A stretch of DNA of 24,792 nucleotides from a virus (Duplodnaviria > Heunggongvirae > Uroviricota > Caudoviricetes), in IMG/VR virus record IMGVR_UViG_2648501235_000003, positions 1 to 24,792 of that record, one strand, 5' to 3'. A program made the translations under genes and the position numbers. The notes beneath the pieces are model-generated. The model did no database searches. It was not told where the DNA came from and worked only from the letters and a program-made list of their open reading frames with translations. Below, piece by piece: positions 23,911 through 24,357 of this stretch. The stretch's first letter is position 1. Each line of letters starts with the position of its first letter.

Positions 23911-23997
23911 TCACCACCAACGGATTGCCCAGACCAGAACAGCAATGGCCACAATACGAATGGCAAATGCCATTGCCCGAATAAGTTCAGCACTCAT
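23911..23997 (-). CDS. Small hydrophobic ORF (28 aa), one predicted transmembrane helix, directly upstream of Rz
   Basis: ATG at 23997; [28 protein letters not shown]; stop TGA one nt before the Rz ATG. Below the ORF-track length cutoff. Confidence 0.25.
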
Positions 23998-24008
23998 CTT
24001 TTTAAAGT

Positions 24009-24131
24009 TCACGATTTCAGCGCAATGACCAGTTTTGCCAGCCCATATAGCATCGGAGACACAGCAATACCAACAGCCACCCACTTAATAGCAAAAGCCA
24101 GCGCTCTGCTGATGTCATCAGTCACTGTCAC
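24009..24131 (-). CDS. Small hydrophobic ORF (40 aa, GTG start)
   Basis: GTG at 24131 overlaps the stop of the upstream 43-aa ORF; VTVTDDISRALAFAIKWVAVGIAVSPMLYGLAKLVIALKS. Confidence 0.25.
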   Translation of the reverse strand: MTVTDDISRALAFAIKWVAVGIAVSPMLYGLAKLVIALKS

Positions 24132-24259
24132 CCCAGCAGCCCCGACGAAGACAACATCACCCAGGCGAGGGACAGAAAAAGAGCAACCAGCATTAGTGAA
24201 AATGAAATACCGACAATCACACACAGGACCTTTGCCGGCGTTATGAGTTTGTCTGACAT
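24128..24259 (-). CDS. Small hydrophobic ORF (43 aa), one predicted transmembrane helix
   Basis: ATG at 24259 with AAGGGG 5 nt upstream; MSDKLITPAKVLCVIVGISFSLMLVALFLSLAWVMLSSSGLLG. Confidence 0.35.
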   Translation of the reverse strand: MSDKLITPAKVLCVIVGISFSLMLVALFLSLAWVMLSSSGLLG

Positions 24260-24261
24260 AG

Positions 24262-24357
24262 CTACCCCTTAATTGCCACAATTAACTGGGATACTACCCA
24301 TAAAAAAGGGATGCTCCAGACCAGCAAAAATTTCCAGTTTGGTAATTGACTAATCAT
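24262..24357 (-). CDS. Small hydrophobic ORF (31 aa)
   Basis: ATG at 24357 with AGGGAG upstream; MISQLPNWKFLLVWSIPFLWVVSQLIVAIKG; its stop is followed 2 nt later by the next ORF start. Confidence 0.3.
   Translation of the reverse strand: MISQLPNWKFLLVWSIPFLWVVSQLIVAIKG

What the first reader, a model, noticed from the sequence alone, without database searches (positions are those of the whole stretch)
23911..24357. Run of four tiny single-helix hydrophobic ORFs between the endolysin and Rz
In lambda, R is followed directly by Rz. Here about 640 bp separates the endolysin stop (24552) from the Rz start (23909). It holds a bidirectional terminator hairpin and then four consecutive short ORFs (31, 43, 40 and 28 aa) on the late strand, each dominated by one hydrophobic stretch, with stop-start spacings of 2 nt, overlap and 1 nt that suggest translational coupling. 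Two have reasonable Shine-Dalgarno sequences. They could be a set of small membrane proteins (holin, antiholin or lysis-timing accessory peptides, or membrane-active toxins), or fragments of one decayed multi-helix membrane protein gene split by frameshifts. None is in the ORF track as a clean entry because of length cutoff and frame changes.
Basis: seen in the sequence. Interest (0 to 1): 0.6.

Follow-up and report, generated by a model that had tools for sequence, protein, structure and literature searches.

The report
Shuffled phage genes for membrane micro-peptides
The gap between the cell-wall-cutting enzyme gene and the outer-membrane-breaking gene of this E. coli prophage holds four real, separate genes for tiny single-helix membrane peptides; they belong to three mobile families that phages swap like cassettes, and nobody knows what they do.

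Summary
On the late (minus) strand, between the lysozyme stop (24552) and Rz (23909), lie a strong bidirectional terminator (24461-24429) and four tightly packed small hydrophobic ORFs. They are not fragments of one decayed gene. Each belongs to a family that stands alone in other phages: O1 is PHROG 6632, O2 is PHROG 4906, and O3 and O4 are paralogues in PHROG 1115/4493. In 120 viral contigs chosen only by a 22-nt linker after the lysozyme gene, every complete lysozyme-Rz interval carries at least one of these ORFs, in more than 15 different combinations. The sense frame has the lowest pN/pS in every family (0.29-0.62). An O2 homologue has a ribosome-profiling signal in O157:H7 Sakai. Two corrections: ORF1 most likely starts at TTG 24396 (44 aa), and O3 and O4 are N-terminally shortened forms of a 57-60 aa family. 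The O1 family reaches Pseudomonas phages. It always travels behind the same terminator hairpin, a strong Shine-Dalgarno sequence and a non-AUG start. It also sits in tail-gene regions, so it is a portable cassette and not a core lysis gene. Function is unknown. My best guess is late-expressed inner-membrane peptides that modulate the membrane or lysis timing. Pfam, NCBIfam, PADLOC and Rfam give no match.

The parts
24552..24792 (-). 3' part of the GH24 lysozyme gene (R; its Salmonella homologue in L009 has an N-terminal hydrophobic SAR-like stretch). The stop TAA is at 24554-24552.
   Evidence: PGAP calls it 'lysozyme' in the 99.7%-identical E. coli locus; Pfam Phage_lysozyme in homologous loci.
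24530..24551 (-). 22-nt linker GCAGAATATTTTGCTGAAAAAT directly after the lysozyme stop. It is a recurrent mosaic junction.
   Evidence: There are more than 120 exact copies in viral contigs, after GH24 lysozyme genes and after the small lipoprotein gene of GH108 cassettes.
24462..24529 (-). Conserved, mosaic 3' untranslated stretch between the linker and the terminator.
   Evidence: 42 distinct versions aligned; no Rfam match.
24429..24461 (.). Bidirectional intrinsic terminator hairpin. It is part of the portable unit that precedes O1-type genes in all hosts.
   Evidence: It is the only consensus structure of the unit, and 4 pairs show compensatory changes across 14 genera.
24262..24396 (-). 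O1: 44-aa peptide (TTG start behind GGGAGG 24407-24402), PHROG 6632. Predicted N-terminal amphipathic helix plus one transmembrane helix.
24128..24259 (-). O2: 43-aa single-helix peptide, PHROG 4906, with Shine-Dalgarno AAGGGG. It starts 2 nt after the O1 stop.
   Evidence: RIBOseq of the homologue XECs191 (PMC5597208).
24009..24131 (-). O3: 40-aa (GTG 24131, overlapping the O2 stop as GTGA) or 38-aa (GTG 24125) peptide. It is the C-terminal two-thirds of the 57-60 aa PHROG 1115/4493 family. PGAP models it from CTG 24164.
23911..23997 (-). O4: 28-aa peptide with an ATG start, a short paralogue of O3 with an ...IRWW tail. Its stop lies 1 nt before the Rz ATG.
23442..23909 (-). Rz i-spanin gene (155 aa) with the embedded Rz1 lipoprotein gene (23689..23504).

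Best explanation
The interval holds four separate genes of the late operon, not one broken gene. Each encodes a very small, single-pass, essentially tail-anchored inner-membrane peptide.

- O1 is a complete member of a portable family.
- O2 belongs to a second family.
- O3 and O4 are two shortened paralogues of a third family.

They are accessory cassettes: low in G+C, present or absent, and reshuffled by recombination at the lysozyme|Rz junction.

Transcription would come from the late promoter, because Q-modified polymerase reads through the upstream terminator. Translation would use each gene's own Shine-Dalgarno sequence (O1, O2) or coupling to the preceding ORF (O3, O4), and then runs on into Rz.

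Inferred function: the peptides accumulate in the cytoplasmic membrane late in infection and act there through helix-helix contacts or by perturbing membrane energisation. In this way they would tune the timing or robustness of holin triggering and lysis. They are not required lysis components.

The conserved pair of starts in O1, and in full-length O3/O4 relatives, may yield two isoforms, as in holin/antiholin genes.
For: Shown:
- HMM membership of all four in PHROG families.
- O3 and O4 are homologous (hhalign probability 97.8%, E 8e-13).
- Each family stands alone elsewhere. O2 is the only small ORF before Rz in 933W/P27/P13374. O1 is alone before Rz in H-19B and SPN3UB. O3 is alone before Rz in Salmonella.
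- Among 120 contigs picked by the linker only, every complete lysozyme-Rz interval has at least one of them, in more than 15 arrangements. The window's arrangement occurs in 71 of 80 contigs carrying an identical O2 and at 80% coverage or more in 585 of 5426 complete E. coli genomes.
- ORFs are intact in 128/132, 145/145, 140/141 and 123/124 sampled copies.
- pN/pS is lowest in the sense frame for every family: 0.62, 0.49, 0.29 and 0.34, against 0.74-2.7 in the other sense frames and 0.41-2.8 in the antisense frames.
- O2 has a good Shine-Dalgarno sequence in every context. O1 has a strong one plus GTG/TTG in 14 genera, and its N-terminal codons show synonymous Ile and Arg changes.
- AlphaFold predicts helices 4-17 and 20-43 for O1 and one helix 3-41 for O2, with pLDDT 80-85.
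- G+C is 45.9% against about 55% in R and Rz.
- RIBOseq and RNA signal exists for the O2 homologue XECs191 in O157:H7 Sakai, which the authors class as a real inner-membrane protein (PMC5597208).

Inferred:
- Late expression, from the absence of a sigma-70-like promoter between terminator and O1, the same-strand operon position and the 1-2 nt or overlapping junctions.
- Dual starts, from the invariant ATG at codon 14 with GGAG/GAGG about 8 nt upstream, the same layout in O3/O4 relatives, and a nonsense allele at codon 12 that persists in 4 loci with the rest of the ORF intact.
Against: There is no functional evidence at all.
- The peptides match no holin, antiholin, toxin or defence family.
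- They occur with three unrelated endolysin types (GH24, GH108, GH19) and their different holins. This argues against a specific antiholin.
- The O1 family also sits in tail or baseplate regions of Pseudomonas, metagenomic and Salmonella SEN34 phages. Its function is therefore not tied to a lysis cassette.
- They lack the charged C-terminal tail typical of holins.
- The shortened O3 is seen only in this arrangement. It has a weak GTG start and could be an untranslated recombination product; one relative has a frameshift in it.
- For O2, the wobble-sharing antisense frame has almost the same pN/pS (0.51 against 0.49).
- The RIBOseq signal is low (12.6 RPKM, RCV 0.43) and comes from uninduced cultures.
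Confidence: 0.45

Rival explanations
1. The peptides are moron-type lysogenic-conversion or superinfection-exclusion factors. They would be expressed at some level from the prophage and sit in the inner membrane, where they block DNA entry or another step of incoming phages, or alter host physiology. Their place in the lysis cassette would be only a convenient insertion hotspot.
For: - The O1 family is found next to tape-measure, tail and baseplate genes in Pseudomonas D3-like phages, a metagenomic phage and Salmonella SEN34, as is known for HK97 gp15 (own knowledge).
- G+C is low.
- Content is combinatorial and variable, as expected for accessory or conflict genes.
- Antirepressor genes are inserted at the same site.
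- There is a RIBOseq/RNA signal for the O2 homologue in uninduced Sakai cultures.
Against: - A strong terminator lies directly upstream, and the scan finds no promoter-like site between it and O1.
- In Enterobacter only 17 nt separate the endolysin stop from the A-tract before the hairpin, which leaves no room for an upstream promoter.
- The ORFs have tight 1-2 nt or overlapping junctions running into Rz.
- There is no PADLOC match.
- The RIBOseq signal can come from spontaneously induced cells.
Confidence: 0.25
2. Only O1 and O2 are functional genes. O3, and perhaps O4, are 5'-truncated leftovers of a 57-60 aa gene. They were cut when the O1-O2 cassette recombined into an older O3-O4 array, and they persist because the arrangement is young.
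For: - The window's O3 lacks the first ~20 codons of the family and its own Shine-Dalgarno sequence. It starts at a GTG created at the junction.
- Scars of the same junction (CAGTGACTGATGAC) occur where O3 has been deleted.
- One relative carries a frameshift in O3.
- Copies of this arrangement are nearly identical, so selection on it cannot be read.
Against: - Short forms with proper ATG starts exist independently. One is a 38-aa O3 type (MNAELL...), indexed in 122 blocks of the protein collection and coupled by ATGA to the preceding ORF.
- The 28-aa O4 occurs in at least 5 different arrangements with amino-acid variation but fixed length, with pN/pS 0.34.
- 140 of 141 O3 copies are intact.
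Confidence: 0.15
3. The ORFs matter mainly as translated spacers or RNA. They would be upstream ORFs that carry ribosomes across the inserted terminator region so that Rz is still translated by coupling, as it is from R in lambda. Alternatively the interval would be a regulatory RNA.
For: - Whatever the arrangement, the ORF next to Rz ends 1-14 nt before the Rz ATG.
- In lambda, R and Rz overlap (own knowledge).
Against: - Conservation is at the protein level, with synonymous substitutions across genera.
- The same families occur away from any Rz or before an unrelated lipoprotein gene.
- There is no Rfam match, and the only consensus structure is the terminator.
Confidence: 0.05
4. They are fragments of one decayed multi-helix membrane protein gene, or a type I toxin-antitoxin locus with an antisense RNA ending at the bidirectional terminator.
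For: - The ORFs are consecutive, hydrophobic and in three different frames.
- There is one weak promoter-like site on the opposite strand at 24253-24282, and a terminator that also works on that strand.
Against: - No fused version was seen in any of about 250 loci. The families occur singly and in different orders.
- The promoter-like hit is at chance frequency (1 found against 1.4 expected) and lies in a junction that is absent from other arrangements.
- There is no match to Hok, Ldr, Ibs, TisB or similar Pfam families.
Confidence: 0.03

Closest known systems
Dual-start holin/antiholin genes of lambdoid phages (lambda S105/S107, phage 21 S68/S71)
   Same: They are small membrane proteins of the late lysis cassette. 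Two closely spaced starts each have their own ribosome-binding signal, and the longer product carries extra N-terminal positive charge. O1, and the full-length O3/O4 relatives, show a conserved upstream non-AUG or AUG start plus an invariant internal AUG behind GGAG/GAGG.
   Different: These peptides have one transmembrane helix and virtually no C-terminal tail, whereas holins have a charged cytoplasmic C-terminus. The two starts are 12-13 codons apart, not 2-3. There is no sequence match to any Pfam holin family. The cassette already has its own class II holin upstream. Members also occur outside lysis cassettes. Use of both starts is inferred, not shown.
Morons of temperate phages, e.g. HK97 gp15 (inner-membrane superinfection-exclusion protein), lambda bor/lom
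   Same: They are extra, low-G+C genes inserted between conserved late genes. They are variable among relatives, encode small envelope proteins and spread by horizontal exchange.
   Different: Classical morons carry their own promoter upstream and a terminator downstream. Here the terminator is upstream and travels with the gene, and no promoter is evident. The genes are packed in translationally coupled arrays.
Type I toxin peptides and other small membrane peptides (Hok, TisB, Ldr, DinQ)
   Same: Their size is 28-60 aa, with one hydrophobic helix and basic residues at the helix end. A membrane-perturbing action is plausible.
   Different: There is no own promoter, no conserved antisense RNA and no sequence similarity. 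They are embedded in a phage late operon.
Accessory lysis regulators (P2 LysA, P1 LydB, T4 RI, Mu releasin gp25)
   Same: They are membrane proteins encoded beside endolysin and spanin genes that modulate timing rather than execute lysis.
   Different: Those are larger, with several helices or periplasmic domains, and are specific to their holin or endolysin. The present peptides co-occur with three unrelated endolysin/holin sets.

Membership tests
PHROG 6632 (O1), 4906 (O2), 1115/4493/3246 (O3, O4): viral protein families of unknown function | Significant match to the family HMM | tested here: met
   the 70-aa extended O1 scores 1.3e-12 and the O1 31-aa form 6e-5; O2 4.5e-21; O3 6.4e-25; O4 3.8e-6; full-length relatives score 1e-23 to 1e-37.
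Holins | Match to a described holin family | tested here: not met
   No Pfam or NCBIfam hit at E<=1 for any of the four or their full-length relatives.
Holins | At least one transmembrane helix plus a hydrophilic, charged C-terminal domain | tested here: not met
   One helix each, but the C-termini are only KG, SSSGLLG, KS and RWW.
Holins | Dual-start motif giving holin and antiholin | tested here: inconclusive
   Two conserved start signals are present in O1 and in O3/O4 relatives. Their use is not shown, and the spacing of 12-13 codons is atypical.
Two-component spanins (Rz/Rz1 type) | i-spanin: N-terminal membrane helix plus a long periplasmic coiled-coil domain. o-spanin: lipoprotein signal with lipobox Cys. 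| tested here: not met
   The peptides are 28-44 aa with no extramembrane domain and no lipobox. The true Rz/Rz1 pair follows at 23909..23442.
Morons (Hendrix/Juhala sense) | Extra gene(s) between conserved neighbours that are adjacent in related phages | tested here: met
   rrrQ and rzpQ are adjacent in K-12 Qin. The content of the interval varies among relatives.
Morons (Hendrix/Juhala sense) | Deviant base composition | tested here: met
   45.9% G+C against 54.8% (R), 54.9% (Rz) and 56.1% (window).
Morons (Hendrix/Juhala sense) | Own promoter upstream and terminator downstream (autonomous transcription unit) | tested here: not met
   The terminator is upstream. There is no promoter-like site on the late strand between 24429 and 24396. 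In Enterobacter only 17 nt separate the endolysin stop from the A-tract before the hairpin. The consensus scan is crude.
Type I toxin-antitoxin toxins | Small hydrophobic toxin with own promoter and a conserved antisense or overlapping RNA antitoxin | tested here: not met
   There is only one chance-level promoter-like hit on the opposite strand, no Rfam antitoxin RNA and no match to toxin Pfam families.
Known anti-phage defence or superinfection-exclusion proteins | Match to a defence-system protein model | tested here: not met
   No PADLOC hit at E<=1. Most Sie proteins are not in that library.
Known anti-phage defence or superinfection-exclusion proteins | Expression in the lysogen and exclusion phenotype | not testable with these tools
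   The only data are a low RIBOseq signal for an O2 homologue in uninduced cultures.
Antiholins / lysis-timing regulators | Genetic effect on lysis time; physical interaction with the holin | not testable with these tools
   This class is not defined by sequence. Co-occurrence with three different holin/endolysin sets argues against holin-specific binding.

The most novel reading that the evidence does not exclude
The lysozyme|Rz interval is an array of portable 'terminator-plus-micro-gene' cassettes. Each founding unit consists of:
- a bidirectional intrinsic terminator;
- a strong Shine-Dalgarno sequence;
- a non-AUG start;
- a conserved second internal start.

Each unit encodes a tail-anchored single-helix peptide made in two isoforms. 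Such units insert at junctions of late operons (endolysin|spanin, tape measure|tail) in phages from Enterobacterales to Pseudomonas. They would form an unrecognised class of late-expressed, membrane-active phage peptides that set lysis timing or close the membrane to incoming DNA. The upstream terminator would make their expression strictly dependent on antitermination.
Probability: 0.25. Interest if true: 0.7.

Novelty: new variant of a known kind. Interest (0 to 1): 0.5.

Why it matters
Lysis of Gram-negative hosts is taught as a three-step programme of holin, endolysin and spanin. Here, in a very common class of E. coli and Salmonella lambdoid prophages that includes the Shiga-toxin phages H-19B and 933W, the endolysin and spanin genes are regularly separated by one to four conserved membrane micro-peptide genes. 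These genes have no assigned function and are often not annotated at all.

If they tune lysis timing or membrane integrity, they affect burst size and, in Stx phages, the timing of toxin release. If they act in lysogens, they are a new set of small conversion or exclusion factors.

The portable unit 'terminator + Shine-Dalgarno + non-AUG start + 45-codon ORF', shared between Pseudomonas and enteric phages, is also an unusual layout for a mobile phage gene. It gives a clean handle for experiments.

Tried and rejected
- **Family searches.** Pfam, NCBIfam and PADLOC scans of all four peptides and their full-length relatives gave nothing. An Rfam scan of 22000-24792 at E<=1 also gave nothing.
- **One decayed gene.** Rejected by the arrangement census.
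- **O1 related to O3/O4.** Not supported by hhalign; only the tails resemble each other.
- **A second hairpin sequestering the O1 Shine-Dalgarno sequence.** Single-sequence folds suggested it, but RNAalifold on 14 genera did not support it. Dropped.
- **Polymorphism within the window-type arrangement.** Too few substitutions to read selection on the shortened O3 and O4.
- **Literature.** Searches for the protein accessions, for small genes between R and Rz, and for lysis-cassette descriptions of Stx phages found no description of these ORFs. The exception is the RIBOseq catalogue entry XECs191.
- **K-12 Qin prophage.** It has no counterpart.
- **Antisense 121-aa ORF (23881..24246, plus strand).** Treated as a by-product. 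It shares wobble positions only with O3 (my frame arithmetic from the coordinates) and cannot persist in other arrangements. The sense frame has the lowest pN/pS in every family.
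Full report
**1. What is there**

The window is the late region of a lambdoid (Rac/HK97-like) E. coli prophage, read on the minus strand. The closest complete genome, E. coli CAU16175, is 99.7% identical over the query. Its gene order is class II holin, YdfR-family protein, lysozyme, three 'hypothetical proteins', 'lysis protein' (Rz), a TonB-family protein, YlcI/YnfO, HNH endonuclease, then terminase, head and tail genes.

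In the window:
- The lysozyme gene ends with TAA at 24554-24552.
- Rz starts at 23909 and carries an embedded Rz1 (23689..23504).
- The 642-nt gap begins with a 22-nt linker (24551-24530), followed by about 70 nt of conserved untranslated sequence.
- A 15-bp G+C-rich hairpin flanked by A- and T-tracts sits at 24461-24429. It folds at -24.2 kcal/mol on the late strand and -15.3 on the other, better than all 200 shuffles in both cases.
Each has one hydrophobic stretch.

The spacings are 2 nt (O1-O2), a GTGA overlap (O2-O3), 11 nt (O3-O4) and 1 nt (O4-Rz).

**2. Are they genes?**

All four match PHROG families of unknown function:

| ORF | PHROG | E-value |
|---|---|---|
| O1 | 6632 | 1.3e-12 (70-aa extended form) |
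| O2 | 4906 | 4.5e-21 |
| O3 | 1115 / 3246 / 4493 | 6e-25 |
| O4 | 4493 | 3.8e-6 |

PGAP annotates O2, O3 (from CTG 24164) and O4 as hypothetical proteins.

Protein searches found:
- 103 O2-like clusters, almost all exactly 43 aa despite identities down to 62%.
- 69 O3-like clusters in E. coli and Salmonella.
- 84 O1-like clusters in Escherichia, Salmonella, Enterobacter, Citrobacter, Klebsiella, Providencia and Pseudomonas. An exhaustive HMM search of 1.84 billion representatives found 73 O1 clusters at 50% identity.

I pooled Nei-Gojobori pN/pS over all distinct nucleotide versions in about 250 fetched loci. The annotated frame is lowest in every family:

| Family | Annotated frame | Other sense frames | Antisense frames |
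|---|---|---|---|
| O1 | 0.62 | 0.84-1.56 | 0.74-1.21 |
| O2 | 0.49 | 0.89-1.24 | 0.51-1.22 |
| O3 | 0.29 | 0.89-2.66 | 0.41-2.83 |
| O4 | 0.34 | 0.74-1.39 | 0.49-1.07 |

For O2 the wobble-sharing antisense frame is nearly as low (0.51). There, the conserved ATG, Shine-Dalgarno sequence, length and operon orientation carry the argument.

ORFs are intact in 128/132, 145/145, 140/141 and 123/124 sampled copies. The sample is dominated by close relatives.

There is one piece of experimental evidence. Hücker et al. 2017 (PMC5597208) list XECs191, an O2 homologue in O157:H7 Sakai, among translated intergenic ORFs. In LB it shows RNA 30.0 RPKM, ribosome footprints 12.6 RPKM, RCV 0.43 and coverage 0.55. 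They predict a one-helix inner-membrane protein and class it 'real'.

AlphaFold models give an amphipathic helix (4-17) plus a membrane helix (20-43) for O1, and a single helix (3-41) for O2, at pLDDT 80-85.

**3. One broken gene or several genes?**

Several genes. I fetched 120 viral contigs selected only by the 22-nt linker, so selection was blind to the ORFs. Every complete lysozyme-Rz interval contains at least one of these ORFs, and the combinations differ:

| Arrangement between lysozyme and Rz | Contigs |
|---|---|
| O1 alone | 29 |
| O3-O2 | 20 |
| O1-O2-O3-O4 (window type) | 12 |
| Long O4 alone | 4 |
| O3-S65-O4 | 4 |
| Ant-O2 | about 7 |
| AntR5-O1-O2 (with or without O3-O4) | several |
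| O3-O4, Ant-O2-O4, Ant-O2-O3 | a few each |

Classical phages fit this picture:
- H-19B and Salmonella SPN3UB carry O1 alone, unannotated.
- 933W, P27 and P13374 carry an antirepressor gene followed by O2.
- Salmonella prophages carry O3 alone.

In cassettes with a GH108 endolysin and no Rz, the same families occur in another order, (S65)-O3-O2. They are followed there by a 51-60 aa lipoprotein gene and then the same linker.

No locus shows a fusion of the frames. Deletion scars such as CAGTGACTGATGAC, left where O3 is missing, show that recombination between cassettes shapes the interval.

**4. Corrections to the anatomy**

- **O1.** These 13 codons encode a conserved motif, (I/F)D(F/L/I)SK(L/I)IRE(L/I/V)R(L/V/I). 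Ile and Arg codons in this stretch vary synonymously between genera, so the stretch is coding. O1 is therefore most likely 44 aa (24396..24262).
- **Possible second start in O1.** The ATG at codon 14 is invariant and always has GGAG or GAGG about 8 nt upstream. Four loci carry the same nonsense mutation at codon 12 with the rest of the ORF intact. Many gene callers start at this ATG. A second start is therefore possible.
- **O3 and O4.** They are homologous (hhalign probability 97.8%). Full-length members are 57-60 aa: MRKYKRILLRLTMKNGLELKAPVTDD..., with their own Shine-Dalgarno sequence and again an internal ATG behind GAGG. The window's O3 lacks the first ~20 codons and starts at a GTG formed at the O2 junction. 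O4 is a 28-aa ATG-initiated short form that recurs in at least five arrangements.

**5. A portable unit**

The O1 family is not confined to lysis cassettes. It occurs:
- between a GH19 endolysin and an overlapped spanin pair in Enterobacter prophages;
- in the moron-rich stretch between tail genes of Pseudomonas aeruginosa D3-like phages, where the protein collection indexes it in 732 blocks and another 38-aa hydrophobic ORF follows it;
- directly after the tape-measure gene of a metagenomic phage;
- in the baseplate region of Salmonella phage SEN34;
- in Pantoea, Brenneria, Sodalis, Yersinia, Providencia and Citrobacter genomes.

In every case the ORF is preceded by the same layout. An A-tract is followed by the hairpin AAAACCCC(C)G...CGGGG(G)TTTT, then (C/G)TGTTTC(C/T), about 20 nt, the Shine-Dalgarno sequence and a non-ATG start. 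Nothing further upstream is conserved.

RNAalifold supports only the terminator hairpin, with compensatory changes in 4 pairs. O3- and long-O4-type genes are preceded by the same hairpin and spacer.

Why a terminator travels upstream of the gene is unexplained. The simplest reading is that it makes expression depend on antiterminated late transcription.

**6. Mechanism: shown and inferred**

Shown:
- The ORFs are independent, conserved coding units.
- Each has a single predicted membrane helix with basic residues at the helix end and almost no extramembrane C-terminus.
- G+C is low, 45.9% against about 55% in the neighbours.
- They shuffle combinatorially.
- They are packed tightly in line with Rz.

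Inferred:
- Transcription only from the late promoter, by read-through of the terminator. No promoter-like site lies between the terminator and O1.
- Translational coupling.
- N-in/C-out tail-anchored topology, from the charge distribution.
- Action within the inner membrane late in infection.

I favour modulation of membrane state or lysis timing, at roughly 0.3 within an overall 0.45 for the gene-level model plus this role. The reasons are the recurrent position between endolysin and the outer-membrane step in three unrelated cassette types, and the holin-like two-start layout.

The main rival (0.25) is a moron-type function such as superinfection exclusion. It is favoured by the tail-region copies and the variability, and disfavoured by the upstream terminator and the lack of a promoter.

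O3, and perhaps O4, may be inert recombination products (0.15).

**7. Comparison with known systems**

- The peptides work most like accessory small membrane proteins of lysis cassettes or like morons, but they fail the membership tests for holins, spanins, type I toxins and classical morons. The membership table lists each tested feature and its call numbers.
- By HMM they are members of PHROG families of unknown function.
- The only mention I found in the searchable literature is the RIBOseq catalogue entry.

**8. Verdict**

- The 'decayed gene' reading is wrong.
- The families are already in databases as hypothetical proteins. Their regular presence between endolysin and spanin, their cassette-like shuffling, the shortened paralogues, and the conserved terminator-Shine-Dalgarno-non-AUG unit shared with Pseudomonas phages appear not to have been described.
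- Interest is moderate (0.5). Function is open and directly testable.

Noticed in passing
window 24462-24551 (minus strand); also L013 3465-3500: The 22-nt linker GCAGAATATTTTGCTGAAAAAT and the ~70 nt between it and the terminator are conserved but mosaic. I aligned 42 distinct versions. The same linker follows the lysozyme gene here and the small lipoprotein gene in GH108 cassettes. The layout (small hairpins, an A-rich stretch, a strong terminator) resembles a 3'UTR-derived small RNA. Rfam has no match. RNAalifold predicts two short hairpins, but I did not test covariation.
   Followed up: partly
L013 3279-3461, L017 3331-3486, L008 1563-1745: A 51-60 aa lipoprotein (PHROG 7528; lipobox LVGC; mature part ~30 aa with three Cys) occupies the exact slot of Rz, with the same TGGTGGTGAnATG junction. 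It occurs in cassettes with GH108 or M15 endolysins that have no recognisable Rz/Rz1. pN/pS is 0.29. It may be an unrecognised outer-membrane-step or receptor-masking protein.
   Followed up: partly
L222 3171-3287 (Pseudomonas phage YMC11/02/R656 gp057); L226 3189-3305: In Pseudomonas D3-like phages the O1-like gene is followed by another 38-aa single-helix ORF ending ...VVLG. This mirrors the O1-O2 pair of the window (O2 ends ...GLLG). I did not establish homology with O2.
   Followed up: no
L196, L195, L181, L103 (O1b copies between lysozyme and Rz): The same CGA>TGA nonsense change at codon 12 of O1 occurs in four contigs (two peptide versions), with the downstream ORF from the internal ATG intact. 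This fits a functional short isoform, or a recent pseudogene.
   Followed up: partly
L005 917-1486 (933W), L004 2323-2892 (P13374), L003 1290-1985 (PhiR5_1): Two unrelated antirepressor-like genes are inserted at the same lysozyme|Rz site, downstream of the same linker. Each is followed without a gap by O2 or O1 (ATGA-type overlaps). The site is therefore a general hotspot for accessory genes in Stx phages.
   Followed up: partly
window 22777-23118 (minus strand): A 113-aa lipoprotein with a TonB C-terminal-like domain (PGAP: 'TonB family protein') sits downstream of Rz, in the place where lambda and 933W carry bor. It has low G+C (44%). It could interfere with TonB-dependent uptake.
   Followed up: no
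window 23881-24246 (plus strand): A 121-aa ORF antisense to O4, O3 and part of O2. I treat it as a by-product of hydrophobic coding on the other strand. By frame arithmetic it shares wobble positions only with O3, and it cannot persist in other arrangements.
   Followed up: partly
window 14891-17313 (minus strand): Two ORFs (454 and 353 aa) overlap by ATGA. In the closest complete genome, PGAP annotates a single frameshifted portal pseudogene over the homologous region. The prophage may be defective, or these may be two genuine genes.
   Followed up: no
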